The position numbers and the translations under genes were made by a program. From positions 38,605 through 102,604 of the IMG/VR virus record IMGVR_UViG_3300031539_000008: a DNA stretch of 64,000 nucleotides. One strand, written 5' to 3'. The notes beneath the pieces are model-generated. The model had not been told where the DNA came from, made no database searches, and saw nothing but the letters and a program-made list of their open reading frames with translations. Positions 1,340 to 18,317 of this stretch are shown one piece after another (the first letter of the stretch is position 1; each line of letters starts with the position of its first letter). Source of the stretch: a virus.

Positions 1340-3775
1340 CTACGCCCTCATCATCCGCGATAGCCGCCGCCGCTCACCGGCGCGTCGATCATCGCGACGG
1401 GCACTCTTGCTGCTCCGGCGTTTGCGCGACACGAACCCACCGCCGGTCGCCAGGGCCATGTTGACCCGAGCAAACAGCCTGGTCCCCCAGGCGGAGGGGT
1501 TCTTGAGCCACCCCTCTCGTCGCGCGATAGCCTCTCGCTCCGCCTCGCCCGCCAGCTCGATGCCGCCGAATCCCATGACCGGCGGGGGCTCCGTCGGCGA
1601 GCGCGGCGACTCCTGCCACCGCGGCTTTCCCTCCCACCGCGTCGCGATGGCTTTGATTTGGGCCGCAGAGATGGGGACCCCGATGGCGTCAGCCACCATG
1701 TCGACCACCTTCTTGGTGATTTTCGTGGCGCCAGTTGCGTCCAGCGCATCCAGAAGCGTCCACTCGAAAGACCTGAGCGCGCTCTCGGCTATCCGATCGC
1801 TCACTCCCTCCATGGAGGCCGCCTCGGAGAGCGTGTAGCCGCCCAGGACGGCTTCCACGATTCGGAAGTCACGATGCTCCCGTTTGGCTCGGGCGCGCTC
1901 AGAGAGCACGTCTCGCCCCTTGGGCTCAGGTGGGACTGGCGGCCTACGCGCCATAATCCGCATCATCTCCTGGAACTCGCCCTTGCCGAGAGGCGTGTGC
2001 TTCCTCGGCTTCTTCAGCTTGGGTCGCTTGGCGTACCCAAAGGCTGGAGGAGGAGGGGCGACCGGAGCAAAGGTAGATGGCGGAGCCATCGCAGGAAACT
2101 TTCCACGCGGAAGCAAGCGCCTCCCTGGCTTGACGAGTTTCTCCTTGGGCCCACGGATCGGCTCGGTGACCCCCATGAGCTTGAGGGTCTCAGCCATCAG
2201 CTCCTCAGTGGGCTCCATGCCCTCCGCCGTGGCCAAGGTGCGCACCATCTTGCGGGTCCGCCGGTATTCCGCCAGCTCCGGATCCATTGGACCGCCCTTG
2301 CGCGCCTCGATCGCGTACCGAATCTCCTGGGGCATCCCGCGGCGCTTACGCGTGTACTTGCGCGTTCTCAGGATCCTGGGCGGCTCCGTCTCCCCGGCAG
2401 CGATGGCGGTGAAGACGGCGTCGCGTTCCTTGTCTGTGCCGAGGGCGGCAAACACTGCGTCATTGAAGCGGGCCTGAGCGAGAGCCGCAGCGCGCCCTTG
2501 CCGCTTGTCGATCCTTTGCTGGCGGAAACGTAGCTCGGACCAGAAATCGTGCACGTCGTGGGCCAGGAGGTCGGCCAGGAGCGCTGAGTCCATGGCCTGA
2601 CGCGATGCCTCGGTCCCGAGCAGCTCCCACAGCGCAGTACGCAGGCGCTGCTCGGACCAACTGGTCATCTTCCCGGGTTCGCGCCCCTCCTTCCGCATCT
2701 CCTCACGCAGCTCCATCACCTTCGCCATGAAGGCATCTGGATCACTGCGGAGTAGGTTTTTCAGGTGCTCGACCAGTTTCAGCTCGGCCGTGACTGCGGC
2801 ATCCGAATGAGACTTGCTGCTCGCCCCCGCCGCGTCCTTCACTCGGGTGATCTCTTCGGCGAGCGCCGCCTCGGACACCGTGCGTGAGGTCCCCGTTGGC
2901 AGCGCCGCCTGCATGGTGGCCAGGGTCACGAAGTCGGCGATCTGCTCGGCCTCGATGGGCGCCTGGTCGGCAGCCACCTTCTCGCCGTACTTCATCATCG
3001 CCTTGACACCGCCCTTGCGATAGTGACCGATGTACTCCTTGGGCTCCGCCCCACGCATCATTTGCATGGCGAATGAGGCTACGTCGTTCAGCTCCTTGAC
3101 GAGGTTGCGCCCGTCCAGCACTGGTAGGCGCCTGGTCCTGGTGAGTTCTCGCTCTCCTCGTGTCAGCTCCTGATGCAGCCTCTTGACCCTCTGGTCGTAG
3201 GGAGCGTCCATCCCAGGCGTAAGCAGCATCTTGGTAGCGGCGATGGCCCAGGTGAACTCGGCAGAATCCTTTGCCGCCTCGACGACCACCTTCTTCACCT
3301 CTTCGACGGTCTCTGGCTGTATCTCCTGCTGCTCGATACGCCTGGTGATCCGCTCCTCCATCGGCACCTTGAGCGGACCAGCGCGCTTGATGATCTTTGC
3401 GACGCCAACATGGGTGATCCCCACGATGCGCGCGATCTCGCGGTTGCTCATTCCTTCCGCGCTGAGCGCCAGGATCTTCTCTTGAGTCTCCCTGGGAGTC
3501 TCTCGTCCTTTCGTCGTTCCGCGTCCCTTTTTGGTCAGGAGTTTGCGAATCGTGTCCGGCTTGAGCCCGGTCGCCTTTGAGATTTCTCCGTGCTTCCGAC
3601 CATCATCGTGCATCTTGAGGATCAGCGCGGTTGTCCTCTCGTCCGGGTTGGCCATGGCCATGCTGGCCACTGCCGTGCTCAGCCCTAGCAGTTCCCCACG
3701 CGTCGGCGACCGCGCGGCGGACCAGTAGGTGGTGCGCGCGACTCGGCACTTCGATGGTTTCTTGGCCTTTGCCAC
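1340..3775 (-). CDS. Large basic protein with three HTH-like motifs and C-terminal tag-like helix
   Basis: GRKHGEISKATGLKPDTIRKLL; GMSNREIARIVGITHVGVAKII; GYTLSEAASMEGVSDRIA; ends RRRLSRMMRA. Confidence 0.8.
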   Translation of the reverse strand: MAKAKKPSKCRVARTTYWSAARSPTRGELLGLSTAVASMAMANPDERTTALILKMHDDGRKHGEISKATGLKPDTIRKLLTKKGRGTTKGRETPRETQEKILALSAEGMSNREIARIVGITHVGVAKIIKRAGPLKVPMEERITRRIEQQEIQPETVEEVKKVVVEAAKDSAEFTWAIAATKMLLTPGMDAPYDQRVKRLHQELTRGERELTRTRRLPVLDGRNLVKELNDVASFAMQMMRGAEPKEYIGHYRKGGVKAMMKYGEKVAADQAPIEAEQIADFVTLATMQAALPTGTSRTVSEAALAEEITRVKDAAGASSKSHSDAAVTAELKLVEHLKNLLRSDPDAFMAKVMELREEMRKEGREPGKMTSWSEQRLRTALWELLGTEASRQAMDSALLADLLAHDVHDFWSELRFRQQRIDKRQGRAAALAQARFNDAVFAALGTDKERDAVFTAIAAGETEPPRILRTRKYTRKRRGMPQEIRYAIEARKGGPMDPELAEYRRTRKMVRTLATAEGMEPTEELMAETLKLMGVTEPIRGPKEKLVKPGRRLLPRGKFPAMAPPSTFAPVAPPPPAFGYAKRPKLKKPRKHTPLGKGEFQEMMRIMARRPPVPPEPKGRDVLSERARAKREHRDFRIVEAVLGGYTLSEAASMEGVSDRIAESALRSFEWTLLDALDATGATKITKKVVDMVADAIGVPISAAQIKAIATRWEGKPRWQESPRSPTEPPPVMGFGGIELAGEAEREAIARREGWLKNPSAWGTRLFARVNMALATGGGFVSRKRRSSKSARRDDRRAGERRRLSRMMRA

Positions 3776-3800
3776 GGTTCAGTGTCGCATGCTCAGGCGG

Positions 3801-5342
3801 CTAGGTCCCCCGCATGGCCTTGCGGAGAATGTCCCTGGCCACGGGGTTCTTCTTGGCCTTCTTCTTGGCGGTTTTGACGCCCAGATACCCACCAGCGATG
3901 GCGCCGACAGGGCCGAGCAGGAGGGCACCGGCACCGCCGCCAATCGCCGCACGCTCTGCGCGCGATGGATTCTTCTTGGTCCGCTTCTTGGCCTTCTTCG
4001 CCGGCTTCTTCTTGGCTACGCCAGAGCGCCCCTTCGCCTTGCGCAGTGAGGCGCGGATCAGATCGACGGACTTCTTGCTCACTCCGCCGATGTCCCATTT
4101 CTTGTTCTGTTTGAGGTAGCGCTCGATGTCCGCCTTGGTGAGCGTCTCCGCGGTCTTGCCCCATTCATCTGGCGCGTAGACGATCCCCTTGAAGTCGGAC
4201 ACGAAGGCCAAGGTTCCGTCTGGAAACTGGACCCACCACTCGACGGTCAGCTTCTCGCCCACATCCTCCGGGCCAAGGGCCAGCGTTGGCTTGCCAAACG
4301 TCTTGACCAAATCTCCGTAGCTGGCGGTGATTTTACCCTTTTGACTGGTCCCATCCAGCAGCTCAAAGTCCACTTCGGACTCGGCGAGGGTGCGGTGGGG
4401 TCCGATTGGCGCAGCGGCACGCACAGGCGCAGCTTCAGCGCCCTTCAGCGCGACATAGGCCGAGGATGCGCGCGACTTCACCGAGGCCGCACGCGACTTC
4501 ACGGTGTCCCAGAACGATGGGTTGTCCAACGCCTTGCGGAACTCGGGATTCGTCTTGACCTGGCAGGCCTCGCACCCGCAGATCTCTGGGACCAGCGTGA
4601 ACTTGTCCGGGTTGGCCTGCGGACCGAAGCTGCCCTCGCCGCCGTAGTCCTTGACCAGAAACTTGCGCAGCATCGCGAGCGTGCGTCCGTGGCCGGCTCG
4701 CACCGACGGGACCCGCTCCAGGATCATCACGCTGCCCAAGCAGGATCGGTAGCCGTAGTGGTCCACACACTTGCGCAGGATCTTCTTCTGCGTGTCGCGC
4801 GGCTTGGAGAGAAATCCCTTGCCGCCGAGCTTGCCGGGTCGGGTGATAGCCTTGGCCATCCACTTCGCCTTGGGAGGCGTACCCTTGTTCAGTCGTGGGT
4901 TCGTCTTCATTTCCTTGTTGGCCCACTCAGTGGCCCGACGCACCGCATCGCTGATGGATTTGGCCTGGTGGGTCAGCTCGCGCTGCCTGGTACGGCCTTC
5001 GTCCTGGACGACGGAGTAGTAGTTGCCCGGAACGAACGGATCAAGGCCGACCGTGAGAAATAGAGCACCCTTGGTGAGTGCGGCGGTCTCGTTGACGTGG
5101 TCGATGGCCTCCAGCATCCAGCCGTTGACGGGATTCTTCACGGCCCCTCGTCTCGCCTTGCTCCTGGCGCCCGGCGGGTAGTAGGTCACCGGACCGACCC
5201 CCATCATGTGTCCGCCGATGCCTGACGTGGGCACCAGCTCCCCAAGCAAGTAGCTCTCGGGCACCGGGCCCGGCGGCATCCTCTTGATCTTGTGCCCCTT
5301 GGGCACCGATGACTTCCGTTTGGGAGGATTTTTCTTGGCCAT
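3801..5342 (-). CDS. Modular basic protein, 8 xNP motifs, C-terminal ILRKAMRGT tag
   Basis: 513 aa; modules separated by KKNP/VKNP/KTNP/QANP/LDNP; ends KKNPVARDILRKAMRGT. Confidence 0.85.
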   Translation of the reverse strand: MAKKNPPKRKSSVPKGHKIKRMPPGPVPESYLLGELVPTSGIGGHMMGVGPVTYYPPGARSKARRGAVKNPVNGWMLEAIDHVNETAALTKGALFLTVGLDPFVPGNYYSVVQDEGRTRQRELTHQAKSISDAVRRATEWANKEMKTNPRLNKGTPPKAKWMAKAITRPGKLGGKGFLSKPRDTQKKILRKCVDHYGYRSCLGSVMILERVPSVRAGHGRTLAMLRKFLVKDYGGEGSFGPQANPDKFTLVPEICGCEACQVKTNPEFRKALDNPSFWDTVKSRAASVKSRASSAYVALKGAEAAPVRAAAPIGPHRTLAESEVDFELLDGTSQKGKITASYGDLVKTFGKPTLALGPEDVGEKLTVEWWVQFPDGTLAFVSDFKGIVYAPDEWGKTAETLTKADIERYLKQNKKWDIGGVSKKSVDLIRASLRKAKGRSGVAKKKPAKKAKKRTKKNPSRAERAAIGGGAGALLLGPVGAIAGGYLGVKTAKKKAKKNPVARDILRKAMRGT

Positions 5343-5345
5343 GAC

Positions 5346-6270: not shown

Positions 6271-6276
6271 GTTTGG

Positions 6277-7859: not shown

Positions 7860-8183
7860 CTACCTGTCGTAGATCGAGCGAAATTGGTCTCTGACCAACT
7901 GATTGACGAGCTGCTTCTTGGTCACGCGACCGTACCGCTTGAGCACAGGCTTTTTTTTTGCCTTCTTGCGGCGGCGCTTGGGGTTGTGTGACTCGATGGT
8001 GGCCAGCTTCTTGTAGTAGGCCTTGTCTTCGGTCAGGTGATCCATGGCGATCTCGACGGCCACCATGAAGTCGCTGGTGTGCTCCGTCTCAACCAGCGCT
8101 CCGCGAGCGAGTTCCACGGCGTTGAAGTCAGAGGGGGACTTCCCCACTGACAGACCGCCGGGTATGCGCTCGCGCCACGTCAC
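7860..8183 (-). CDS. DUF5661-like protein with basic tail
   Basis: ELARGALVETEHT...AVEIAMDHLTEDKAYYKKL then HNPKRRRKK; GTG start overlapping the upstream stop. Confidence 0.7.
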   Translation of the reverse strand: MTWRERIPGGLSVGKSPSDFNAVELARGALVETEHTSDFMVAVEIAMDHLTEDKAYYKKLATIESHNPKRRRKKAKKKPVLKRYGRVTKKQLVNQLVRDQFRSIYDR

Positions 8184-8863
8184 GGAATCCGTAGCTTTCG
8201 CTTCCTCTTCGGAGTCTTCTTCTTCGCCACCTTCTTCTTGGCCTTCTTCTTGGCCTTCTTCTTTTTTCCTCCGCGTGGAACCTGTGTCCACTCGCCGGAT
8301 GCACGCATCTCCACGTCCGATGGAGCGTACCGCTCGGTCCACTCGCCAGAGGAGATCATTTCGCGTGACTTCTTGTGCGCCGCCTTGTAGCCGGCGTCTG
8401 GATTGCTGGCCGTGCCAGAGAGCAGGACCGACTCGGTATGCGGGTCGATCAGGCCCCACTGGATCTGACTCTTGGCGCCGGGGTTGGGCACCCAGACATA
8501 TGCCAGCTCGGACGGGTTCTTGGTGAACCGCGTGAGACTGCCAGGCGTGCCCATCACGATCCCCTTCCAGTAACCGAGCAACGCATGCGAGCGCTTGTCT
8601 CCCATGCCCTTGGGCCCACAGCTCATGCGTGGGCTGGCCGCGTATCCGCGAGCCATCGCGGCGTTGGCCCCGGCCGAGCACGAGGTCAGATCGTACTTGC
8701 TGGCCCCCATTTTTCCCTTCGCGCTCCGGCTGCGAATCGGGACGTAGTAGGCACCGCGCGCCTCGCTCCAGCGGATGCGCGCCTGTCCTCCGGCGACGCC
8801 GCGGCCCTCCTTGCGAACTGCGGCAAGCGCCTTGGCGAAACTGACTTTCTGCTTTTTGGCCAT
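8180..8863 (-). CDS. Basic protein with xNP motifs and Lys-rich tail
   Basis: TKNP, VPNP, ASNP; KKKKAKKKAKKKVAKKK. Confidence 0.8.
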   Translation of the reverse strand: MAKKQKVSFAKALAAVRKEGRGVAGGQARIRWSEARGAYYVPIRSRSAKGKMGASKYDLTSCSAGANAAMARGYAASPRMSCGPKGMGDKRSHALLGYWKGIVMGTPGSLTRFTKNPSELAYVWVPNPGAKSQIQWGLIDPHTESVLLSGTASNPDAGYKAAHKKSREMISSGEWTERYAPSDVEMRASGEWTQVPRGGKKKKAKKKAKKKVAKKKTPKRKRKLRIP

Positions 8864-8871: not shown

Positions 8872-10236
8872 CTAGATCTTGCTGAACTTGCGCAGAATCG
8901 TCGCCTTCTCACGGGCACTCATCTGCTTGTTCGCCTTGGGTCCACTCGGCTTGACCGAGCGGGGGGTTTTGGCCGCGACAGCGCGAGCCTTGCGCGACTT
9001 CTTGCTCTTGAACTGCGCAAACAGCCCCTCGTGTCCCCGAATAGGCTCCAGGGGGTTGAGCTGTAGGTAACCACGCGAGGAGAGCTGCATGCGGCGACCC
9101 GAGGCCGTTGCGCCACGTCCCGCGCCGGAGCCTGGACCGTCGCCGGAGAACCGGCTCATGTTGCGACCGGCCACAGAGAGGCGATGAATCGCCTGCTCCA
9201 CCGTCATCTGCGGAGGCACGCCGGCGAACCCTGGGCGCGGCACGTTGCTCGGCCACGGCGCGACGCGCGTGGGCGCTCGCTTGGCCACCTTGCGCTTCGT
9301 GGCCTTGCGCTTGGCGACCTTCCGCTTTCCGGTCGTCTTCCGCTTTCCGGTCGTCTTCCGCTTGGCCACCTTCTTCTTGGCGGTCTTGCGCTTGGCGACC
9401 TTCTTCTTCGTGGCCTTCTTCTTCGTGGCCTTCTTCTTGGCTGGCTTGCGCTTGGCTGTGCTCAGCTTCTTGGAGCACAACTCCAGCCGCATGGAGCAGC
9501 CTTTCAGGGAGTCCTTGAGAGCCTCCTCCTGCTTCTTGGTCAGGTCTCCCCGATGCTTGGCCTTTTTCAGGCGCGTCTCCAGGGACTTGATGTGTGCCTT
9601 GAGCGAGGCGATTTCCTTGCTGTCCTTGCGCTTGGCGGCGGCGATGCGCTTGGTCTCCTGGCGTGCCGCATCGAATCCCTCCATCAGGTCGGACACCACG
9701 TCGGCTGAAACCATTTCTTCGGTCAACTTGGCCAGCGCAGCCTTGCCCTTGGTGATTTTGGCAATCTTGGCCTTGGACGGAATCGAACCCTGGGCCATTC
9801 CCCATTGTTTCTTCGTCAGACCGTGCTTGCGTACCTTGCTTGGCGTACCAGACGGGCTGGCGGGGCCGGCGGCAATCCCGACAGCTTTCTTCTTCTTCGA
9901 CCGCTTCTTCGTGGCCTTCTTCTTGGCCGGCTTGCTCTTGGTCGCTTTCTTCTTCGCAGTTTTCGCCACCTTTTTCTTGGCCACCTTTTTCTTGGCCTTT
10001 TTCTTGGCTGGCTTTTTCTTCGCCACCTTCTTCTTCTTGGTCGCCTTCTTCTTGGTCGCCTTCTTCTTGGTCGCCTTCTTCTTGGTCGCCTTCTTCTTGG
10101 TCGCCTTCTTCTTGGTCGCCTTCTTCTTCTTGGCGGCGTTGCGCTTTGGCGACTTGCGCTTCGCGGCACGCTTCTTCGCCTTCTTGGCGCGCTTCTTCTT
10201 TCGAGGATTGACGACGTTGACGGTGTAGGTGGCCAT
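8872..10236 (-). CDS. Histone H1/Hc2-like Lys-Ala-rich DNA-condensing protein
   Basis: (KKATK)n pentapeptide repeats (15-bp tandem near 10031-10125), central coiled coil, ends ATILRKFSKI. Confidence 0.85.
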   Translation of the reverse strand: MATYTVNVVNPRKKKRAKKAKKRAAKRKSPKRNAAKKKKATKKKATKKKATKKKATKKKATKKKATKKKKVAKKKPAKKKAKKKVAKKKVAKTAKKKATKSKPAKKKATKKRSKKKKAVGIAAGPASPSGTPSKVRKHGLTKKQWGMAQGSIPSKAKIAKITKGKAALAKLTEEMVSADVVSDLMEGFDAARQETKRIAAAKRKDSKEIASLKAHIKSLETRLKKAKHRGDLTKKQEEALKDSLKGCSMRLELCSKKLSTAKRKPAKKKATKKKATKKKVAKRKTAKKKVAKRKTTGKRKTTGKRKVAKRKATKRKVAKRAPTRVAPWPSNVPRPGFAGVPPQMTVEQAIHRLSVAGRNMSRFSGDGPGSGAGRGATASGRRMQLSSRGYLQLNPLEPIRGHEGLFAQFKSKKSRKARAVAAKTPRSVKPSGPKANKQMSAREKATILRKFSKI

Positions 10237-10752: not shown

Positions 10753-11454
10753 TCAGATCCTCATCAGTCTGCGCAGCGTTTTCCGCTGCTCGGGTTTCAG
10801 CTTTTTCTTCGGCATGCGTATTCCGCCGCCGACCGATTCGCCCGCGCGTTGGGCGAGCCAGTTGCAAAGGCCGCCGGGGGATTCGACATCTGGACGTGCC
10901 TCCATGATGGCGAGACAGGCGCTCATACTGCCGCCTGGAATGTCGACAGGATTCCCCTCGTAGGGTCCGACGCCGTATCTGGCGGTAATCTTCTGAGCCA
11001 CACGAAGCAGGCTCCGAGCTTCCGTGACTCCGTTTTGTCCAAGTTTGCGGGCTGGCCCAGGGTCGTCTCCAGAGTGTTCCGCTTCGCCCACGGCCACCGC
11101 TGCGTATTTGATGGTGTCCAGGGCTCCGTTGAAAGCCACTGTGAAATCTTCCACCCGCTGAGCCTTCTCGAAAGCCTTGGCGGCGAGACGCATCGCCTTG
11201 CGGTACCGATCCGCGTGTTCACTGCGTCCTGGGTTGGCTAGCTGCGGATCGAACCCGTACCTCCGCATGATCGAGAGGTTGTTCTTCACCGCCCGCCAGT
11301 CGCTCGGCGTCTGCGACATGAACACCGAGCCCTTCCCGCCCGGGGACGATAGCTTCCAATGACCAGCCTTGCGCAGCGTGGCTGTCCATCCCTGCGCCTT
11401 GGCCTGCTCGATCACCTCGCGCATGCGCCTGGAAAGGTCTGACTTGCGGGACAT
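10753..11454 (-). CDS. Modular protein: HicA-like N-terminal domain, NP-delimited modules, C-terminal tag
   Basis: QGWTATLRKAGHWKLSSPGG...TPSDWRAVKN...RRYGF; LANP, EGNP; ends KTLRRLMRI. Confidence 0.75.
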   Translation of the reverse strand: MSRKSDLSRRMREVIEQAKAQGWTATLRKAGHWKLSSPGGKGSVFMSQTPSDWRAVKNNLSIMRRYGFDPQLANPGRSEHADRYRKAMRLAAKAFEKAQRVEDFTVAFNGALDTIKYAAVAVGEAEHSGDDPGPARKLGQNGVTEARSLLRVAQKITARYGVGPYEGNPVDIPGGSMSACLAIMEARPDVESPGGLCNWLAQRAGESVGGGIRMPKKKLKPEQRKTLRRLMRI

Positions 11455-11462: not shown

Positions 11463-11798
11463 CTACCGAGCGAAGACCTCGGCGCGTGTGTGAAGTCGGC
11501 CTTCATCGAACTCGATGTGGTCGCGTTCAACCTGATCTACCAACTCGGCCGGGCAATACCTGCGGAACGGAAGCATCTCCCGTGCCGCGTGCTCTGCGAC
11601 GAGGTCTGGCGGAAAGCCAAGGTTCCGCAGCATCCGATGCTCACGGCGCAACTTGTGTTGTTGAGCGTTGGGCAGATACGGAAACAGCGAATCCTCCTCA
11701 AATGCGAAGTGGCATTCCAAACAGCACGCCACATCCATGCGGCAACTATTCATCTTGTCTTTGCAGGCTCCGCAACATGGTGGCTTGACTGGCATCAC
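11463..11798 (-). CDS. Hemerythrin/HHE-like small protein
   Basis: HFAFEEDSLFPYL, LRREH, HAARE pattern. Confidence 0.55.
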   Translation of the reverse strand: MMPVKPPCCGACKDKMNSCRMDVACCLECHFAFEEDSLFPYLPNAQQHKLRREHRMLRNLGFPPDLVAEHAAREMLPFRRYCPAELVDQVERDHIEFDEGRLHTRAEVFAR

Positions 11799-12523
11799 GT
11801 ACCTCTCATGGCCTTCTCCAGGATACCCCTGGTTTTCTTGCTACTCGTGCGATTCTTCCTGGATTTCGTCCTCTTCTTCGTCGGGTTCGGGATGAGACCC
11901 TCTGCCGCCAGTGAGGTAAAGTTACGTGGAGAGACCACCACGTGATCCAACACCGGGATTCCAGTCATCCTGCCGACCTTGACCATGCGTTGTGTCAGAT
12001 CGATGTCAGCCTCGCTTGGCGAGGAGTCGCCAGTGGGATGGTTGTGTGCGATGACCACGCTGTGAGCCTGCCGACGGATCGCCTCCCGAAACAACTCTCT
12101 GGGGTGCACCTCCACCGCCGACAGGCTGCCAATGGCGATTCCGAGCACGTCGATCACTTGCTGGCGTGCGTCGAGCAACACGACGACGAAATACTCCTGC
12201 GGCTTCTTGCCGATGACCCTACGCACGAGTTCTGCTACCTCGGATGGCTGCCTGACAGTCCCCGCGCGGTCCTGACAGGCCGCGTCACACAAGCCAGCAA
12301 CCGCAAATACAGCAATCACCTTCTTGGCCTGGGCAGTGGGAACCCCAAGATGGGTGAGCGCACTCATGCTCGCGTCGGAGAGTCCACGCCCGTCGGGGAA
12401 GTTCTCGGCCAGGATGGCTGCGCTTTTCTTGGTCAGCCCCAACTCACGCAGGCGGTCCACGAGCTTGCCTCGCTCCCGAATCTCCAGGAGTAGATCGTTG
12501 TGTATCGGTCGACCTCTCGGCAT
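11795..12523 (-). CDS. radC: RadC/JAB-domain protein with basic tail and C-terminal tag
   Basis: QEYFVVVLLD, VHPRELFREAI, AHNHPTGDSSPSEAD, LDHVVV; tail PNPTKKR...GILEKAMRGT. Confidence 0.9.
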   Translation of the reverse strand: MPRGRPIHNDLLLEIRERGKLVDRLRELGLTKKSAAILAENFPDGRGLSDASMSALTHLGVPTAQAKKVIAVFAVAGLCDAACQDRAGTVRQPSEVAELVRRVIGKKPQEYFVVVLLDARQQVIDVLGIAIGSLSAVEVHPRELFREAIRRQAHSVVIAHNHPTGDSSPSEADIDLTQRMVKVGRMTGIPVLDHVVVSPRNFTSLAAEGLIPNPTKKRTKSRKNRTSSKKTRGILEKAMRGT

Positions 12524-12936
12524 CAGGTTCCTCGCATCGCTTTACGCAGGATCGCGCGGGCGTCTGGATTATTCTTCGCATTTTTCTTGGCGGTCTTTTT
12601 GGCCTTACTGGGCTCTTGGGCGATACGCCCTTCCGCCAGCTCGATCATGCTATCCTTCTCACCGGCCCGCTCATCCAGACGATCCTGGTCGCGCGCGGCC
12701 GTGTACGCCTGGATGTAGAAGCTGTACTCGACCTTGTAGATGTGGCCGTTGACCTTCGTGTAGAGGCCGGGGATGACTCGGTCGTTCAGGCTGTCCCACA
12801 GCTCATGCCACTGGTAGTCGTCTGGGCCGTAGTCTGGCAGCGCCTGCTGTTGCTTGCGGGGGTCTGGGATTCTGGCGCTGCGTCGGTCGAACGACGACAT
12901 CTCCCGATACGGCGATGTGACAACCGGAGCCATCAC
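12523..12936 (-). CDS. Hypothetical protein with C-terminal tag
   Basis: Ends KKNAKNNPDARAILRKAMRGT. Confidence 0.8.
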   Translation of the reverse strand: MMAPVVTSPYREMSSFDRRSARIPDPRKQQQALPDYGPDDYQWHELWDSLNDRVIPGLYTKVNGHIYKVEYSFYIQAYTAARDQDRLDERAGEKDSMIELAEGRIAQEPSKAKKTAKKNAKNNPDARAILRKAMRGT

Positions 12937-13727
12937 GTCCCTCGCATCGCCTTGCGCAAGATCGTCTTGGCGTCGGGGTTCTTCTTGGCCACCTTCTTCT
13001 TCGCCTTCTTCTTCGCTTCTTTCCTCGCTGGCTTCCCCCAGTTGAGTTCATCCACCAGCGAGATGGCCTTGTCGAAAGCGTCGGCACCACGAAAAGTCTC
13101 GTAGATCTTCGTCTTGTCGCGCACCGCGTATACGCCATGCGGGAGCACGTCAATCCGTACCATCGGGGATGCAGCCTTGGCCCTGGGGTTCTTCACCCTC
13201 TTCTTGGCGCGCTTGCGCGAGGCTTTGCTCGCGGGGTTGCTGCGCAGTTTCAGCATGTCCTCCACCTCGGAGGATATGGAGCTGGCGCCGTCCATGATGG
13301 AGTAATCGTCGGCGTGGTGTCCCTCGTTCCAAGCGGCGTGCGCATCTTCCAGGGCTAGGATGGCCAGGACTTTGCGATGTGACCCGTCTGTGGTTTCACG
13401 GGCCTTTTCAAGCGTCTTTTCAGCTTGCTTGAGGTGAGCCTTCGCCAGCCTGGCATGGGTCTTCTTGGCGGGGTTCGATGTCTTTTTGCGCGGGTTCTCG
13501 TACCCCTCGCCCTCCACGCCCCCGGCCTCGCCCCACCCAGACTCGCCGCCCGGCCACTCGTCCGAGAGCTTGGCCCCGAGCCTGGATGCCTTGCGGTCGC
13601 CGCCCTTGGGCTCGAATCCTCCACCCCGTCGCCACTCCCAGTACGCCTCCAGGTGTTCGCCGGCGGCGTGGTAGTCCTTGCGCTTGAGGGCGCTGGTGGC
13701 CATGTCGAGTGCTGCCTGCGGGTCCAT
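12933..13727 (-). CDS. Modular basic protein, 5 xNP motifs, C-terminal tag
   Basis: Start MDPQAAL (TGATG overlap); ends KKNPDAKTILRKAMRGT. Confidence 0.8.
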   Translation of the reverse strand: MDPQAALDMATSALKRKDYHAAGEHLEAYWEWRRGGGFEPKGGDRKASRLGAKLSDEWPGGESGWGEAGGVEGEGYENPRKKTSNPAKKTHARLAKAHLKQAEKTLEKARETTDGSHRKVLAILALEDAHAAWNEGHHADDYSIMDGASSISSEVEDMLKLRSNPASKASRKRAKKRVKNPRAKAASPMVRIDVLPHGVYAVRDKTKIYETFRGADAFDKAISLVDELNWGKPARKEAKKKAKKKVAKKNPDAKTILRKAMRGT

Positions 13728-14287
13728 CAGTACACCAGTCCTCTCTCCGTCACGGTTAGCCGACCGCCGCTGATGGCGATGGCCTTGGGCGGGCTTCCAG
13801 GCGACATCGCGATGCGCACGTTCTTGCCCAGGGTGTGGATGTAGTCGTCCGTCATTCCGTCCGACTTCCATTTGGAGCTGCGGTACACGATGTGAACCGC
13901 GCGACCGTACGGCTTGAGCTGGTAGTCTTGGAGCTTGAGTTCGCCCATCTGCACGGGGTCACGCGCCGCCCATCGACGAAATAGCTTGGCCGACTTCTCC
14001 GCGCCGGCCGCCTTGAACAGCTCCTGGTCCGGACCGAGATGGCCGACCCATCGCACGTGCTTCCCAGGGAAGATCAGCAACGTCTTCAGCGTCGGGCTCC
14101 AATAGAGGTTGGGGCCCTCCCCCGTGAACTTGTGGACCTCTTCCTGCCCGTCGCTGTCGCGCTCGACCTTGATCTCCAGGGCAGTGCCAAGCAGTGCCAC
14201 GTCGCCTGGATTCGGCAGGCGTGACGGCTTAGGGCCGGGGTTCCCCGCAAGTAGCAGGCACGGTAGGCAGGGGTTTTGGCGTGGCAT
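13727..14287 (-). CDS. Putative virion protein with three N-terminal xNP motifs
   Basis: RQNP, AGNP, LPNP then a globular domain (YRSSKW...YIH...GGRLTVTERGL). Confidence 0.75.
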   Translation of the reverse strand: MPRQNPCLPCLLLAGNPGPKPSRLPNPGDVALLGTALEIKVERDSDGQEEVHKFTGEGPNLYWSPTLKTLLIFPGKHVRWVGHLGPDQELFKAAGAEKSAKLFRRWAARDPVQMGELKLQDYQLKPYGRAVHIVYRSSKWKSDGMTDDYIHTLGKNVRIAMSPGSPPKAIAISGGRLTVTERGLVY

Positions 14288-14496
14288 CTTCGTTTCTCAG
14301 CGTCGTCGGGATCCCTTTTTCGGCCGCGACCGCGGCCCACCGGAATACCGTCAGCCAATCCCCGGGCCGCATGACGCGTCCCCCACTCCCCTGAAGTCGT
14401 GGAAGGACTGTGGTGCGATTTGTGGTGCGATTTGTAGCGTGGAGACGGTCGCCGCGTTGGCGCGGTCCACATCGGCTTTGCTTGGTTGAGTAGCCA

Positions 14497-15060
14497 TCAG
14501 GGGCGGCTTGTATCCTCATATTGTACGGGGAGCTGCGGGTCGCCGGAGCCAGGACCTGGCCCGGTGTGCTTCGTGCACACCCAGATGCCTTTGACGTACG
14601 CGAACTGCTCGCAGTCACCTGCGTCTATAGGCGTTGATCTTCCGGCTGATAGGGAACGCGAACGAGAGCGCGAACGAGAGCGCCGACGCCCAACCCCGAT
14701 CCTTGGGCCCGGTGCTGTTGGTCCATGGGGGAACAGGCATCCGGTAATCATGGACCCTTGGCACTCAGCCAAATCGTGAGCACTCAGCTTGCTCGCCATC
14801 CACTGTTTCTTACACCAGGCTAGACCACTGGAGATGCACTTGCCGCGGGGGCGGCTAGGCGTGGATCCTCCGCGTGAGCCCGCCCTCCCCTTGCCCCGAG
14901 CGCCGACTCCACGGTGCAGAGTCATCTTGACCGGTGCCCCCATGCCTCGCGGCACGATCGGGATGCGGACGTGTCCATCTTGGATGTGAGAACGAGCCGC
15001 GTCGGTGTCCCATGCTCCGAGGCCGACTTGACGCTGATACAGAGTGGGGTTGTTGGCCAT
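14497..15060 (-). CDS. Basic Cys-containing protein with several G[LMV]GA motifs
   Basis: MANNP; GLGA, GMGA, GVGA; RS repeat; KGIWVC. Confidence 0.7.
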   Translation of the reverse strand: MANNPTLYQRQVGLGAWDTDAARSHIQDGHVRIPIVPRGMGAPVKMTLHRGVGARGKGRAGSRGGSTPSRPRGKCISSGLAWCKKQWMASKLSAHDLAECQGSMITGCLFPHGPTAPGPRIGVGRRRSRSRSRSRSLSAGRSTPIDAGDCEQFAYVKGIWVCTKHTGPGPGSGDPQLPVQYEDTSRP

Positions 15061-15061
15061 C

Positions 15062-15493
15062 TCAGTACCTCCCCGTCGCCCGGTACTGACGCTTGGCGGT
15101 CAGACTGATGGGCCGGCGGTTCTTCCCACCTAGCCGGCGGGTGCCGGCTCCCTTGAAGGTGAGAGACATGCCAGATGCAGGCTCGTACCACCCGCCCCGG
15201 CTCGCGCCCAGGCCCTCGGGTTCGTCCGTGTACTGGTTGTTGTTGGCGTCCACGCCGCCGTCGTCTGGATAGCCAACGGTGTCGTTGTAGTCATCCATGC
15301 CGCCAGATGGCTGGCCATCCGGAGCGCAGTCCACGTCTGGCTGATGCGGGTAGGGCGTCTTCCCGCAGTGGCAGTAGTGGTGGTGGTGGTGGTGAACATC
15401 CTGGTGTTCATGCTGCGGCGCACAGCCGGTGTGGCAGCCAGCCACCCCTTGCTGTTTCCCTCGCTGCTTTCGATAGCTTCGTCGTTGAGCCAT
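15062..15493 (-). CDS. His/Cys-rich protein
   Basis: HEHQDVHHHHHHYCHC; EGLGAS. Confidence 0.65.
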   Translation of the reverse strand: MAQRRSYRKQRGKQQGVAGCHTGCAPQHEHQDVHHHHHHYCHCGKTPYPHQPDVDCAPDGQPSGGMDDYNDTVGYPDDGGVDANNNQYTDEPEGLGASRGGWYEPASGMSLTFKGAGTRRLGGKNRRPISLTAKRQYRATGRY

Positions 15494-15498
15494 TTTTC

Positions 15499-16272
15499 TT
15501 ACCTCCGTTGTTTTCCGCGCAAAGTCAGGCCGCGCTTACCGATTCCGCCCTGGTCGCATCCCGCATCGATCCAGTAGGGCATGCTCCTGGTGGGGCATCC
15601 AGCAAATGGCTCGGCGTAGAACTGCGCGCTCTGCCCGATCCAGTACGGCTGTTGCCCGATAGGATAGGGCACCCGTCGCTGTCGCCTTTTTCGTCCTCGA
15701 CGAAATCCATAATACAGGCCGACCGGATTGGTGGTGGGTGCGCAGCCGATGTCCCCGGGATTTGGCCCGATGTACGGGTTGCATGCCGCGCCATACCCTG
15801 GTCCTGGAGGCACCGGTGGCCGAAGAGGCCGGCGACGCGCGGGAATGGGAGTGGCAGCGGGCGGTGCAGCGGAGGTCTGTCCGACGCCAGGGCTCGTGCA
15901 GTCGCCTGTGCAGTCGCCTCCGCACTCACACTCGTGTCCAGATGCGCAGGACTCACAGCAGTACCCTTCCCACCATGGCTGGTGATGGTCCACCGCAGGG
16001 GGGCAGTCTGAGTGACCGCCGCATGGCCGCTCAGGCAGACAGATGGGAAGCGCGCCGCGAATCGAGTAGGGCGTGTAGATTCCACTCTCCATCGCCAAAT
16101 AGCTGCGCTGGAGACCCGGATGCTGGACAGGCTGGCAACCGGGCCGATACGCCGGATAGGCGGGCATTTCGGTATCTCCGCTCCAGGTCCCGTGAGGCGC
16201 GCCCATTCCGCGGCGGTAGGTCAGGGGGATTCTGCGCATCGTCTTGTTCTTCCACTTGTCTCCACAGGGCAT
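15499..16272 (-). CDS. Cys/Pro-rich protein
   Basis: RRGMGAP; CCESCASGHECECGGDC; ends LTLRGKQRR. Confidence 0.7.
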   Translation of the reverse strand: MPCGDKWKNKTMRRIPLTYRRGMGAPHGTWSGDTEMPAYPAYRPGCQPVQHPGLQRSYLAMESGIYTPYSIRGALPICLPERPCGGHSDCPPAVDHHQPWWEGYCCESCASGHECECGGDCTGDCTSPGVGQTSAAPPAATPIPARRRPLRPPVPPGPGYGAACNPYIGPNPGDIGCAPTTNPVGLYYGFRRGRKRRQRRVPYPIGQQPYWIGQSAQFYAEPFAGCPTRSMPYWIDAGCDQGGIGKRGLTLRGKQRR

Positions 16273-16276
16273 TTTT

Positions 16277-16615
16277 CTACCTCTTCGGCTTCGCGAGCGG
16301 GCGATCGTTGTAACAAACCCACCGATAGCCGTTGAAGTGTGGCGTGAACCCGGGGAGGCAGGTCACCCCCCTGGTGGTAGCGGACGCGGCGATGCGGCGA
16401 CTGGGAGGCGCTGGCAGTCTGGCGCCCACGCCGTACTGCGTTGGGTGCATGAACACCTGCGGGCGGTAGGGGACTGCGTAGTCGATCACGGTATCGGTCC
16501 ACGGGTCGTAGCTCGCACCGACGCCGCGGGTGCTCCCTCCGCCGAGCAGACGCTTGGCAGACTCGACTTCGCGCAGCATGCGACCGCGCCCTTTGTCACC
16601 GCTTGGGTTGTTCAT
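16277..16615 (-). CDS. Small protein with MNNPS start and two GVGA motifs
   Basis: RGVGAS, YGVGAR, C...GYRWVC. Confidence 0.7.
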   Translation of the reverse strand: MNNPSGDKGRGRMLREVESAKRLLGGGSTRGVGASYDPWTDTVIDYAVPYRPQVFMHPTQYGVGARLPAPPSRRIAASATTRGVTCLPGFTPHFNGYRWVCYNDRPLAKPKR

Positions 16616-16657
16616 GGGAACTCCTGGTCCCGATGCTACCGCGGCGGAGCTGTACCC

Positions 16658-17614
16658 TCAAATGTTCATCATGCGACGCATGAACGAGCCACGCGTTGCC
16701 TTCTTCGGGGCGCTCGCAGCTCGTTCCTTCGCGGTCTTCTCTACGAGCGCACACGCGGATGCAAGCGCACGCCGGGCTCCCCACGCTGTGTAGCTCCCAA
16801 GAGCCGTCTCGTCTGGGCCGATCACCGTCGCCATCGCCATGCCGTCATGCTCTGCGATGTCTCCGCCTTCGTACGCGCCAAGCGGTTGCACGTCGATGGT
16901 GTAGCTGCGGCAGGCGAACAAGCCGCCGTTGCCCTTCACGGTACGCATGCGCACGCCAGCGGGAACTGGTGGCTGCGGTGGAACACGTTTGCGGCTGCGG
17001 TGTTTCGCCTGCTCGTGCATCAGGTCGATCACTGCCAGCGCCTCCAGGTGGGGGAACGGCTGGTCCGAGGACCATTCTGCCAACACGGCACCGGGTCCGT
17101 CTTTGATCTGGCGCGCAATCTGGACGTTTGGCCCCTGCACAAGTATATGACGGCCTCTGTACTTGTAGATGGTTCCGTTTTCGTCCTTCTGGACGGTGAG
17201 CGGAGTCTTGTTCTCGCGGAATCCTCCGTAGAGCAGGTCGTCTTCGGCGGCCTCCCCTGGATTCTTTTGGACCTTCTCCCAGAACCCCCACTCGATTGTT
17301 CCGTCGGGCATCTTTCGCCCGCTGAAGTAGTGATGTGCCGGAGCCGTCTTTTGCAGCCCGGAGGTGATGTGGTCGAAAAGGGTATCAGCCTGGCGCTGCC
17401 AATCGCGCGGAGCCTCCTCGTACCACTCATCCCCGTCTCCACGCGCATCGGCCTCGGTGATGTAGAGATAGACGCTGCCAAGCTGTCCGCGTAGGGCACG
17501 ATCTGCGTCCGGGTCAAGATGGCGCAGCGTCCCCATCAGCTCGACGATCGCCTCACCCCGAGGCCCGTCTGGCATCTGGATGAACACGGGTCCGGGCTTG
17601 GCTCGCTTACGCAT
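16658..17614 (-). CDS. Modular protein with tag-like C-terminus
   Basis: QKNP boundary; ends KKATRGSFMRRMMNI. Confidence 0.75.
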   Translation of the reverse strand: MRKRAKPGPVFIQMPDGPRGEAIVELMGTLRHLDPDADRALRGQLGSVYLYITEADARGDGDEWYEEAPRDWQRQADTLFDHITSGLQKTAPAHHYFSGRKMPDGTIEWGFWEKVQKNPGEAAEDDLLYGGFRENKTPLTVQKDENGTIYKYRGRHILVQGPNVQIARQIKDGPGAVLAEWSSDQPFPHLEALAVIDLMHEQAKHRSRKRVPPQPPVPAGVRMRTVKGNGGLFACRSYTIDVQPLGAYEGGDIAEHDGMAMATVIGPDETALGSYTAWGARRALASACALVEKTAKERAASAPKKATRGSFMRRMMNI

Positions 17615-17615
17615 T

Positions 17616-18317
17616 TCACATCCTGGTCAGAACACTGGGCAGGCGTCCACGGGATTTGGCGGCTTTCTTGCCGCCGTTGACCTGTGGCTTGGGAGCATAG
17701 TAGCGCTGTTCCCACTGCTTTGCAGCGCGCTTGGCCGCACTTATGGCGGTCTGCTCGCTGCGGTAGGGCTTGGAGGACGTGGCGGCGAGCTTGCTCTTTC
17801 GGTTGTCTTGCACCCAGAAGTGCCAGACGGTTCCGTCTCCGTCGACAGTGATGGAGAAGTCTTGCTCCGCCTCTGGATTGCGTCGTCTTCCAAGTCCACG
17901 CACAGACCAGTAGATCGGGTATCGGGCTCGTGAGTCGGCCCTGATGCGTCCACAGACTCGTGCAGCCCGGACAGAATCTCCGTGCCGCTTCGTTTGGTCG
18001 TCCACACACTGGTACCAGGGATAGGTGCCTGGCCCGCGTCGAGCCTTGTCTACCTTGCGACGTGCGGGGATGGTTTTCTGCTTCCTGGCCAGCTCGCCCG
18101 CAGCGCGCTGCAAGGTCTCTGACATGGCGAAGTCACCCGCGTTTTCCGCCTCGTAGATCAGGTCCGAAAGCCGGTCATGGTAGGCGACATAGCTCTCACC
18201 TTTCTTTCTGCGCGGGACGGCGGGACCACGTGGAATCAGCGCGGTTATTCGGCGCCTGGCAACCTTCTTGGTCGCCTTCTTTCTGCCCTTGCTAACCTTT
18301 TTCTTGGATCGGGCCAC
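17616..18317 (-). CDS. Modular basic protein
   Basis: GTG start MARSKKKV; YPWYQCVDDQ...AARVCGRI module; RRNP; ends LPSVLTRM. Confidence 0.7.
   Translation of the reverse strand: MARSKKKVSKGRKKATKKVARRRITALIPRGPAVPRRKKGESYVAYHDRLSDLIYEAENAGDFAMSETLQRAAGELARKQKTIPARRKVDKARRGPGTYPWYQCVDDQTKRHGDSVRAARVCGRIRADSRARYPIYWSVRGLGRRRNPEAEQDFSITVDGDGTVWHFWVQDNRKSKLAATSSKPYRSEQTAISAAKRAAKQWEQRYYAPKPQVNGGKKAAKSRGRLPSVLTRM

What the first reader, a model, noticed from the sequence alone, without database searches (positions are those of the whole stretch)
1340..18317. Shared C-terminal ILRKAMRGT-type tag on unrelated proteins: candidate virion cargo-loading signal
Seen: four proteins with unrelated bodies end in DILRKAMRGT (3801), GILEKAMRGT (RadC, 11795), AILRKAMRGT (12523) and TILRKAMRGT (12933). 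Codons differ synonymously (att ctc cgc aag gcc atg cgg ggg acc vs atc ctg cgt aaa gcg atg cga gga acc), implying selection on the peptide. Variants end 1340 (RLSRMMRA), 8872 (TILRKFSKI), 10753 (TLRRLMRI), 16658 (FMRRMMNI) and 17616 (LPSVLTRM), nearly always after a Lys/Arg-rich linker. Known analogues: T4 capsid-targeting sequence, encapsulin cargo-loading peptides. Inference: a portable amphipathic tag that loads RadC, HicA-like, HTH and histone-like proteins into the particle for delivery with the DNA.
Basis: partly seen in the sequence, partly recalled or inferred. Interest (0 to 1): 0.92.

Follow-up and report, generated by a model that had tools for sequence, protein, structure and literature searches.

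The report
Shared C-terminal address peptide, uncultured phage
At least 35 unrelated protein families of an uncultured soil and sediment phage lineage end in the same 9-15 residue basic helix, a new portable docking label that may load regulators and toxins into the virus particle, though its destination is untested.

Summary
Exactly four ORFs in the 102.6-kb virus contig end in IL[RE]KAMRGT. Seven more end in a looser [hydrophobic]-x-R-R-[hydrophobic]-M-R-[I/L] form. This motif ends 11 of 141 proteins, against one internal match and 0.0025 expected by chance.

A degenerate DNA pattern for the tag found 15 true metagenome contigs and none in 596 Gb of prokaryote genomes. Some contigs carry 5-11 consecutive tagged genes. 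A profile of the tail found 26 proteins among 1.84 billion, each matching at its very last residue. In total, 77 tagged sequences fall into 35 unrelated clusters: RadC, HTH, HicA, ClpX zinc finger, L5 gp82, DUF4240, mostly unknown.

Codons vary synonymously at every degenerate site. Residues outside the search pattern (N-P-D-A-R-A) are conserved too, and the tag persists where no gene follows. So selection acts on the peptide; only the Arg-Gly codons also serve as the next gene's ribosome-binding site.

I read the tag as a capped amphipathic helix on a Lys/Arg-rich linker that docks to one common receptor. Loading into the virion is the best guess (about 0.4) but untested. The contig is about 71% complete and lacks recognisable head genes. 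Rivals are a ClpX-type degron or tether, a membrane anchor, and DNA binding. The scan has noted comparable shared tags in other phages.

The parts
3801..5342 (-). Tagged ORF, 513 aa, multi-module. It has a Gly-zipper transmembrane-like segment, then a K-rich linker, and ends in NPVARDILRKAMRGT (tag codons 3804-3848).
   Evidence: Its central region is homologous to the tagged protein P0071. No Pfam family.
11795..12523 (-). Tagged RadC/JAB protein, 242 aa, ending in ...KKTRGILEKAMRGT (tag codons 11798-11824). This copy has no NP cap.
   Evidence: Pfam RadC 4.9e-38; phrog_10276 3.1e-29; sequence.
12523..12933 (-). Tagged protein, 136 aa, of unknown family, ending in KNNPDARAILRKAMRGT (tag codons 12526-12570).
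   Evidence: identical to P0051.
12933..13727 (-). Tagged protein, 264 aa, ending in KKNPDAKTILRKAMRGT (tag codons 12936-12980). Only its N-terminal ~77-aa module is shared with relatives, which carry other middle modules and the same tag.
   Evidence: P0001-P0004; P0003 ends in ILRRAMRGT.
10753..11454 (-). Loose-tag protein, 233 aa, with a HicA-like N-terminus, ending in KTLRRLMRI. Its orthologs end in TLRRAMRGT, LLRKAMRI, LLSRAMRGT or LLRKAMRL.
   Evidence: phrog_2089 2.9e-15; HicA_toxin hit on one tagged member of the metagenome set A1, member not identified.
8872..10236 (-). Loose-tag protein, 454 aa, with histone-H1-like (ATKKK)n repeats, ending in TILRKFSKI. Its orthologs end in ILRRALRGT or IMRRLARIG.
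16658..17614 (-). Loose-tag protein, 318 aa, ending in SFMRRMMNI. This tail is conserved in three orthologs.
1340..3775 (-). Loose-tag protein, 811 aa, with HTH / sigma-70 region 4-like domains, ending in RRLSRMMRA.
   Evidence: Pfam HTH_29, HTH_23 and Sigma70_r4_2.
17616..18368 (-). Doubtful member, 250 aa, ending in RLPSVLTRM. The tail is conserved in orthologs (RLPSILTRI, RLPSVLNRI) but contains Pro.
8180..8863 (-). Ortholog of tagged proteins (L013 ends in ILRNAMRGT, L010 in AMRAAMRGT). Here it ends in ...KRKLRIP: the last tag codons appear deleted.
13727..14287 (-). Untagged, highly conserved 186-aa beta-barrel protein that heads the run of tagged genes in every relative. Its role is unknown.
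11463..11798 (-). Untagged, conserved 111-aa Cys/His-rich protein lying among the tagged genes. Its hemerythrin-like hit is weak.
   Evidence: PF01814, E 0.0024, below the curated cut-off.
18942..19298 (-). Untagged, conserved single-pass membrane protein with an invariant acidic amphipathic C-terminus, KRTVIEEMVED. It was considered as a charge-complementary receptor; this is not supported.
   Evidence: The complex job gave no verdict (listed under Tried and rejected only).

Best explanation
The tag is a portable, self-contained docking peptide. Its full form is N-P-[D/S]-A-R-A-I-L-R-[R/K]-A-M-R-G-T-COOH. I read it as a three-turn amphipathic alpha-helix with its own caps: Asn as N-cap, Pro at N1, Asp/Ser at N2, and Gly as C-cap. 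One face carries Ile, Leu, Ala and Met, and the other carries three Arg/Lys. It hangs on a disordered Lys/Arg-rich linker at the extreme C-terminus of otherwise unrelated proteins. All copies are recognised by one common receptor. The most likely receptor is a component of the assembling virion (capsid interior, scaffold or core). In that case the tagged proteins would be packed with the DNA and delivered into the next host cell. These proteins include a RadC/JAB protein, HTH and sigma-like regulators, HicA-like proteins, a ClpX-zinc-finger protein and many unknowns, and all are strongly basic. What is shown: the existence of the tag, its strict terminal position, peptide-level selection, portability across at least 35 families, and restriction to this phage lineage. 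What is inferred: the helix with caps, a single receptor, and the virion destination.
For: 1. Occurrence. There are four strict and seven loose tags in 141 proteins, one internal match, and a shuffle expectation of 0.0025.
2. Distribution. The degenerate DNA pattern gives 15 true loci in metagenomes and 0 in 596 Gb of prokaryote genomes. L008 has 11 tagged genes within a run of 13 consecutive called genes, and L005 has 5 consecutive tagged genes; 40 of 100 predicted proteins in these loci are tagged.
3. Terminal position. A profile of the tail finds 26 proteins at E <= 1e-3 among 1.84e9 representatives, every one ending at the last residue.
4. Portability. 77 tagged sequences form 35 BLASTP clusters. 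Homologs of the 12933 protein keep the N-terminal module and the tag but swap the middle.
5. Peptide-level selection. All degenerate sites vary (Ile ATC/ATT/ATA; Leu CTG/TTG/CTC/CTA; Arg with five codons; Gly and Thr with all four). Positions outside the search pattern are conserved: N 16/23, P 19/23, D 14/23, R 17/23, A 16/23.
6. One receptor. Orthologs in different genomes carry different flavours of the tail, while unrelated proteins in one genome share a flavour. Lys at -6 occurs in all four strict tags here and in none of the 19 distinct metagenomic tails tabulated. In L008 the GT-ending form also sits on the orthologs of the proteins that end in LMRI and FSKI here.
7. Virion destination. 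Tagged genes lie on the same strand as, and next to, genes for membrane and jelly-roll proteins and a protein matching virion-structural PHROGs (phrog_2647, 2.8e-29). The cargo is very basic, like packaged internal proteins of known phages. The recognisable domains are host-takeover types.
8. Precedent. From the literature and my own knowledge: the T4 capsid-targeting sequence and the P1 Dar proteins (reviews listed), the HK97 protease and herpesvirus scaffold C-terminal tails, and MuF-fused toxins.
Against: No virion data exist. No capsid, portal, scaffold, maturation protease or terminase was recognised on the contig, so no receptor can be named. None of the tagged proteins matches a PHROG structural category. 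The recognisable cargo domains would also work in the cell that makes them, without any packaging. Later checks of comparable 'shared tag means head cargo' readings elsewhere in this scan gave low odds for the bold reading or overturned it. The helix and its caps are inferred from sequence rules, not modelled.
Confidence: 0.4

Rival explanations
1. The tag is a host-protease or chaperone signal, either a ClpX-type C-terminal degron or a tether. It would make the phage's regulators and toxins short-lived, or dock them to ClpX. This resembles the portable MuA C-motif-2 degron (...ILEQNRRKKAI-COOH) or the SspB C-terminal XB peptide (...ALRVVK-COOH) that binds the ClpX zinc-finger domain.
For: The tag is strictly C-terminal, basic with hydrophobic residues, and preceded by a disordered linker that would suit unfoldase engagement. 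The MuA degron CILEQNRRKKAI is portable onto Arc and recognised by ClpXP (PMC12723719). The cargo includes regulators, a HicA-like toxin and a sigma-like protein, classes often controlled by proteolysis. One tagged protein is itself a ClpX-type zinc finger (P0073).
Against: Conservation spans 13-15 residues with helix-capping residues, far more than known ClpX degrons need. The last residues vary (GT, I, L, M, A, IG) while the inner L-R-R-x-M-R is the most constant part. That is the reverse of a signal read from the free carboxyl end. No match to the strict-tag DNA pattern in 596 Gb of cellular genomes; the looser forms were not searched. A signal read by a universal host machine might be expected on some host proteins. 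The similarity to MuA and SspB is by eye only.
Confidence: 0.2
2. The tag is a membrane-targeting amphipathic helix like those of MinD or FtsA. It would park basic proteins on the host membrane or on an internal viral membrane.
For: The pattern is two hydrophobic, two basic, two hydrophobic, one basic residue, then Gly. Its hydrophobic moment is high, 0.66-1.03. It is similar in length and layout to the E. coli MinD tail KGFLKRLFGG (own knowledge). The neighbouring module encodes many single-pass membrane proteins.
Against: Membrane-targeting helices conserve amphipathicity, not sequence. Here Ile, Leu, Ala, Met, Arg, Gly and Thr are near-invariant across unrelated proteins and diverged genomes. 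The hydrophobic face is small, with only three large residues and no aromatic residue in the strict form. One tagged protein type already has a transmembrane segment next to the tag (3801 product, P0069).
Confidence: 0.12
3. The tag acts on nucleic acid or on itself. Together with the NP-K/R-rich linkers (comparable to histone SPKK units), the Arg-rich helix would bind DNA or act as a 'sticker' that condenses the tagged proteins and DNA into one body.
For: Tagged proteins have a median net charge of +18 and linkers with 30% K/R. The NP dipeptide is about 6-fold over expectation in tagged proteins: 7.0 per 1000 aa against 1.2 expected and 2.4 in untagged proteins. One member is an H1-like (ATKKK)n protein.
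Against: General DNA binding would not require an exact terminal nonapeptide, and the linkers already supply the charge. No internal copies of the helix occur.
Confidence: 0.13
4. The tag is a by-product of nucleotide-level constraints. These could be a Shine-Dalgarno site and stop/start overlap for the next gene, or a conserved DNA linker used for module shuffling.
For: 36 of 51 tagged genes have an ATG within 22 nt after the stop, often as TGATG. The Arg codon at -3 is AGA, AGG or CGA in 20 of 23 tails, giving GAGG or AGGGG. Arg at -7 and -6 uses mostly CGC or CGG.
Against: Synonymous variation occurs at every degenerate site over 9-15 codons. 15 tagged genes lack an ATG within 22 nt after the stop. 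The two tails that use CGC-GGG (L007, L009) lack such an ATG, and the next called gene downstream lies on the opposite strand, yet they keep the peptide. The ribosome-binding site therefore explains codon choice at two codons, not the peptide.
Confidence: 0.03

Closest known systems
Capsid-targeting sequence (CTS) of phage T4 internal proteins IPI-III and Alt; N-terminal targeting of P1 DarB
   Same: It is a short portable peptide shared by unrelated, basic, host-directed proteins of one phage. In T4 and P1 it is sufficient to load them into the head for injection (reviews listed; own knowledge).
   Different: The CTS is N-terminal, has no sequence likeness to this tag, and is cut off by the prohead protease at L/I-x-E. 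Here the tag is C-terminal, no protease or cut site is established, and packaging is not shown.
C-terminal capsid-docking tails of the HK97 maturation protease, the herpesvirus scaffold and protease, and the P22/80alpha scaffolding proteins
   Same: A C-terminal, often amphipathic and basic helical tail docks a protein to the inside of the procapsid (own knowledge).
   Different: Those tails sit on one or two dedicated assembly proteins per virus. They are not found on dozens of unrelated accessory proteins, and there is no sequence similarity.
Encapsulin cargo-loading peptides and bacterial-microcompartment encapsulation peptides
   Same: A terminal peptide after a flexible linker is transplanted among unrelated cargo and binds the shell interior. 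Microcompartment peptides are amphipathic helices.
   Different: The encapsulin peptide is a Gly-rich hydrophobic extended motif, not an Arg-rich helix. No encapsulin (PF04454) or BMC shell (PF00936) gene is present on the contig.
MuF-domain polymorphic toxins of prophages
   Same: Variable toxin or anti-defence modules are joined to a constant head-associated module. This gives a shuffled repertoire of phage-delivered cargo (own knowledge; also named).
   Different: The constant part there is a large N-terminal MuF head-morphogenesis domain, not a 15-residue C-terminal peptide.
ClpX C-motif-2 degron (MuA ...RRKKAI) and the SspB XB tail
   Same: A C-terminal, basic and hydrophobic, portable peptide of a mobile element (PMC12723719).
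   Different: It is much shorter, is not a capped helix, and occurs on single proteins. See the rival explanation.
MinD/FtsA membrane-targeting sequence
   Same: A C-terminal 8-12 residue basic amphipathic helix after a linker.
   Different: There is no sequence-specific conservation in those families, and they have a larger aromatic hydrophobic face.

Membership tests
T4-type capsid-targeting sequence | N-terminal position on the cargo | tested here: not met
   The tag lies at the extreme C-terminus in all 77 tagged sequences.
T4-type capsid-targeting sequence | Removal by a prohead protease (S77/S78 family) at a consensus site | tested here: inconclusive
   PF03420 and PF04586 are absent from the contig, but the record is only about 71% complete. 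NP lies 14-15 residues before the end, and I read it as a helix cap rather than a cut site.
T4-type capsid-targeting sequence | Cargo present in virions | not testable with these tools
   The lineage is uncultured and no proteome is available.
Encapsulin cargo-loading peptide | C-terminal peptide after a flexible linker | tested here: met
Encapsulin cargo-loading peptide | Gly-rich hydrophobic consensus (for example, LTVGSLRR or GSLxIGSLK) | tested here: not met
   The consensus here is NPDARAILRRAMRGT. The encapsulin consensus is quoted from my own knowledge.
Encapsulin cargo-loading peptide | Encapsulin shell gene in the locus | tested here: inconclusive
   PF04454 and the HK97 capsid family PF05065 gave no match, but the contig is incomplete.
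Microcompartment encapsulation peptide | BMC shell proteins encoded nearby | tested here: inconclusive
   PF00936 gave no match on the contig; the record is about 71% complete.
MinD/FtsA membrane-targeting sequence | Amphipathic helix at the C-terminus | tested here: met
   Hydrophobic moment 0.66-1.03. The helix is inferred, not modelled.
MinD/FtsA membrane-targeting sequence | Binding to lipid bilayers | not testable with these tools
   This needs liposome or localisation assays.
ClpX C-motif-2 degron / SspB XB tail | Recognition by ClpX leading to degradation or tethering | not testable with these tools
   Only a by-eye likeness to CILEQNRRKKAI is available.
RadC/JAB (one cargo only) | RadC-like JAB domain | tested here: met
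   PF04002, 4.9e-38, residues 91-210.

The most novel reading that the evidence does not exclude
This phage lineage would use a C-terminal, capped amphipathic helix as a universal loading ticket. At least 8% of its predicted genes would be packed into the particle and injected with the DNA. These include HTH and sigma-70-like transcription proteins, RadC, HicA-like toxins and a shuffled island of unknown effectors. That would make it a programmable protein-delivery system with a receptor unlike any known capsid-targeting system, and possibly the first virion-delivered sigma-type factors.
Probability: 0.3. Interest if true: 0.85.

Novelty: new variant of a known kind. Interest (0 to 1): 0.68.

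Why it matters
Portable address peptides are rare, and they are useful as tools. The T4 capsid-targeting sequence, the encapsulin loading peptide and the microcompartment encapsulation peptides have all become handles for packing foreign proteins into particles. This is a 15-residue C-terminal label that evolution has transplanted onto at least 35 protein families in one uncultured phage lineage. It resembles no known signal, and its receptor is unknown. If the receptor is the capsid, the lineage carries an unusually large and fast-shuffling injected proteome, including transcription factors and toxins. That would bear on how phages of soil and sediment bacteria take over their hosts and evade defence, and it would supply a new cargo tag. 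If the receptor is host ClpX, a membrane or DNA, the tag is still a new example of a virus-wide sorting or timing signal. Either way it gives a simple sequence rule for picking out a functional class among the 'dark matter' genes of these phages.

Tried and rejected
- **Complex prediction.** I folded the 36-aa tail alignment (A4) against the conserved acidic C-terminal region of the membrane protein 18942-19298 (A5, residues 63-118). I chose that partner because KRTVIEEMVED looks charge-complementary to AILRRAMRGT. The score was 0.00 and the tool gave no verdict, which is evidence neither for nor against.
- **Is the 13727-14287 protein a prohead protease?** I suspected this from invariant His, Ser and Lys residues. 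The AF2 model is good (pLDDT 81, pTM 0.77). However, Foldseek found nothing below E 1e-3, and the best VIA match is a PilZ barrel at Z 5.1. A PDB profile search found nothing. I dropped the idea.
- **Is the 33251-34018 protein the major capsid protein?** Its C-terminal domain is a jelly-roll or C1q-like sandwich. The best matches are phage cement proteins, BclA, plant-virus coats and collagen-fibre heads, all weak. The result is undecided.
- **ESM Atlas on the 32298 product.** Uninformative.
- **Head genes.** Pfam and PHROG scans of about 70 proteins, six six-frame family searches, and a Walker-A scan found no capsid, portal, terminase or protease.
- **Relatives in other collections.** IMG/VR held no hit for the tag pattern. 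The jelly-roll protein had no relatives in IMG/VR or GTDB genomes. GenBank phages had no match to the 12933 protein.
- **The listing of cluster members.** It gave no names.
- **Literature.** Searches for the peptide string found nothing.
- **Metatranscriptomes.** Two sediment RNA libraries hold short contigs identical to parts of the region. This does not show transcription, because DNA carry-over is possible.


Full report
**Context.** The window is bases 38,605-102,604 of a single 102,604-bp virus record with 62% G+C. The database classes it as linear and about 71% complete. It encodes a DnaB-type helicase, an AAA ATPase shared with N4-like and other phages, an integrase, methyltransferases and a glycosyltransferase. 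It also encodes a protein matching virion-structural PHROGs (phrog_2647, head decoration, 2.8e-29). No capsid, portal, terminase or maturation protease is recognisable. With about 29% of the genome missing, this says little. Near-identical DNA occurs in runs labelled soil metagenome, and parts or relatives occur in runs labelled sediment and marine sediment.

**The observation.** Exactly four ORFs in all six frames of the genome contain KAMRG, and all four have it at the very end. They are 3801-5342, 11795-12523 (RadC), 12523-12933 and 12933-13727. The bodies share no BLASTP similarity.

A rough gene call based on third-position G+C gave 141 genes. It showed that the looser tail is more widespread than reported. 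This tail reads [hydrophobic]-x-R-[R/K]-[hydrophobic]-M-[R/K]-[I/L]. Besides 1340, 8872, 10753 and 16658 in the window, it ends genes at genome 10073-10468 (ALRRIMRL), 11257-12753 (AFHRLMRI) and 13911-14981 (VFRRMMKL). More divergent tails end 8651-9910 and the sigma-70 region-2 protein at 12822-14051.

A regular expression written after seeing these tails matches 11 of 141 C-termini. It matches one internal site in 28,121 residues, and composition shuffles give 0.0025 matches per genome. Even allowing for the post hoc pattern, chance is excluded.

**Relatives.** I back-translated I-L-R-x-A-M-R-G-T-stop into a degenerate DNA pattern.
- It has no match in 596 Gb of bacterial and archaeal genomes and none in IMG/VR, where the source record may be masked.
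- It has 16 matches among metagenome contigs. One is a chance hit outside any ORF. The other 15, at 64-67% G+C, are true C-termini, with up to three exact matches per contig.
- The longer contigs are syntenic with window 8.1-24.2 kb.
- In them, 40 of 100 predicted proteins carry the tail. L008 has 11 tagged genes within a run of 13 consecutive called genes, and L005 has five in a row.

Orthologs tie the loose forms to the strict form. The 10753 protein ends in TLRRLMRI here, but in TLRRAMRGT, LLRKAMRI, LLSRAMRGT or LLRKAMRL in relatives. The 8872 protein ends in ILRKFSKI here, and in ILRRALRGT or IMRRLARIG elsewhere.

A profile of the last 36 residues was searched against 1.84 billion representative proteins. 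It returned 26 hits at E <= 1e-3, and in all 26 the match ends on the protein's last residue.

Pooling everything gives 77 tagged sequences in 35 single-linkage BLASTP clusters. Recognisable domains are few and varied: RadC/JAB, HTH / sigma-70 region 4, sigma-70 region 2 (with a divergent tail), HicA toxin, ClpX-type zinc finger, mycobacteriophage L5 gp82 and DUF4240. Homologs of the 12933 protein share only its first ~77 residues up to 'GYENP' and then carry different modules. One of them (P0003) ends in ILRRAMRGT. The tag is therefore portable in evolution.

**Peptide or DNA?** Among 23 distinct tails, every degenerate codon position varies: Ile has three codons, Leu four, Ala three, Arg five, and Gly and Thr all four. 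The invariance of the nine tag residues in the metagenomic set is partly by construction. But the six residues before them were not in the pattern and are conserved: N 16/23, P 19/23, D 14/23, A 12/23, R 17/23, A 16/23.

Arg at -3 uses AGA, AGG or CGA in 20 of 23 tails, giving GAGG or AGGGG 7-10 nt before the next start. Arg at -7 and -6 uses mainly CGC or CGG. In addition, 36 of 51 tagged genes have an ATG within 22 nt after the stop, often as TGATG. However, 15 tagged genes lack an ATG within 22 nt after the stop. The two tails with CGC-GGG (L007, L009) lack such an ATG, and the next called gene downstream lies on the opposite strand, yet the peptide is unchanged. So nucleotide-level selection shapes two codons, and the peptide is selected for itself.

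**Anatomy and inference.** N-P-[D/S]-A-R-A-I-L-R-R-A-M-R-G-T fits textbook helix-capping rules: Asn/Ser/Thr/Asp at the N-cap, Pro at N1, an acidic residue at N2-N3, and Gly at C' (own knowledge: Richardson and Richardson 1988; Aurora and Rose 1998). I therefore read it as an autonomous three-turn helix. One face carries Ile, Leu, Ala and Met, and the other carries the arginines. Its hydrophobic moment is 0.66-1.03.

This gives a simpler reading of the NP found 14-15 residues from the end than a protease cut site, although cleavage is not excluded.

The helix hangs on a linker that is 30% Lys/Arg. Tagged proteins have a median net charge of +18 against -4 for the rest. The NP dipeptide is about six-fold over expectation in them, usually followed by K/R runs, which recalls histone SPKK units.

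The near-invariance of small residues (Ala -5, Gly -2, Thr -1) across unrelated proteins argues for a specific protein groove rather than generic membrane or DNA binding. Lys at -6 is shared by all four strict tags of this genome and by none of the 19 distinct metagenomic tails tabulated. In L008 the GT-ending form has spread to the orthologs of proteins that end in LMRI and FSKI here. Unrelated proteins within one genome thus drift together, as expected if they all serve one receptor.

**Where does the tag send its proteins?** This is not settled.

Points for the virion:
- The tagged genes form long co-directional runs next to the membrane-protein, jelly-roll and spike-like genes.
- The cargo is strongly basic.
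- The known domains are of the host-takeover or anti-defence type.
- There is precedent from the T4 CTS, P1 Dar, MuF toxins and C-terminal docking tails of capsid proteases and scaffolds.

Points against certainty:
- No head genes are on the contig.
- No tagged protein matches a structural PHROG.
- Similar bold readings elsewhere in this scan fared poorly on later checks.

The conserved untagged proteins in the block gave no answer. The 186-aa protein heading the tagged operon is a confident beta-barrel with no clear relative. The 33251 product has a jelly-roll or C1q-like domain compatible with a fibre, a decoration protein or a coat protein.

**Rivals.** The rival explanations are listed in their own section with odds and tests:
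- a ClpX-type degron or tether (compare the portable MuA degron CILEQNRRKKAI; PMC12723719);
- a MinD-like membrane anchor;
- a DNA-binding or self-associating sticker.

A pure nucleotide-level artefact is contradicted.

**Comparison and novelty.** The tag works like a cargo or address peptide, a known kind. It fails the defining features of each known family that could be tested. It is C-terminal rather than N-terminal (T4 CTS). It is an Arg-rich helix rather than a Gly-rich hydrophobic motif (encapsulin). No BMC or encapsulin shell gene is present on this incomplete contig. Its sequence is conserved in a way membrane-targeting helices are not. The peptide string is absent from the searched literature. 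The strict-tag pattern has no match in the 596 Gb of cellular genomes. I class it as a new variant of a known kind. The scan has noted comparable shared tags, mostly N-terminal and one C-terminal, in other phage genomes, but none in this lineage.

**Verdict.** Interest is 0.68.

Noticed in passing
window 8180-8863 (-), tail at about 8180-8200: This ortholog of tagged proteins (L013 ends in ILRNAMRGT, L010 in AMRAAMRGT) ends here in ...KRKLRIP. About 20 nt covering the xAMRGT-stop codons appear deleted, so it is a natural tag-truncated allele.
   Followed up: partly
tagged proteins throughout window 1340-18368 and loci L003-L018: The dipeptide Asn-Pro marks module boundaries, typically as a folded domain, then NP, then a K/R run. 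It occurs at 7.0 per 1000 aa in tagged proteins against 2.4 in untagged ones. Many genes also start with M-x-x-N-P. It could be a helix or turn cap, an SPKK-like DNA-binding unit, or a processing site.
   Followed up: partly
window 18942-19298 (-): A single-pass membrane protein whose acidic amphipathic C-terminus, KRTVIEEMVED, is invariant in three relatives that are otherwise 43-50% identical. In layout it is the mirror image of the basic tag.
   Followed up: partly
window 13727-14287 (-): A 186-aa protein heading the tagged operon. It is far better conserved than its neighbours, 47-84% identical in 17 of its 18 homologs (one at 32%), with invariant H52, W63, S64, S137, K139 and H151. It is a confident beta-barrel with no clear structural relative.
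   Followed up: yes
window 7032-7463 (-): A membrane-anchored protein with a chagasin-family (I42) cysteine-peptidase inhibitor domain (PF09394, 4.2e-08), lying in the same operon as the tagged genes.
   Followed up: no
window 5346-6720 and 16277-16615 (-): Several small paralogous ORFs begin with M-[N/R]-N-P-S-M.. and contain G-[MVL]-G motifs. The jelly-roll protein family (33251) has a variable Gly-rich segment with G[MV]GQ before the conserved domain.
   Followed up: no
genome 12822-14051 (L001, -), outside the window: A sigma-70 region-2 protein (PF04542, 1e-13) ends in ...QNPHKRARSALRRRLGLS, a divergent version of the tail. If it counts as tagged, the phage would label its own sigma factor.
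   Followed up: partly
whole record: The record is listed as linear and about 71% complete. The absence of terminase, portal and capsid genes should therefore not be read as a tailless virus that lacks a packaging ATPase.
   Followed up: partly
window 9300-10450: The (ATKKK)n repeat region of the 8872-10236 gene shows many length variants, joints and much higher summed contig depth in the metagenome runs. It is a hypervariable or cross-mapping low-complexity region.
   Followed up: no
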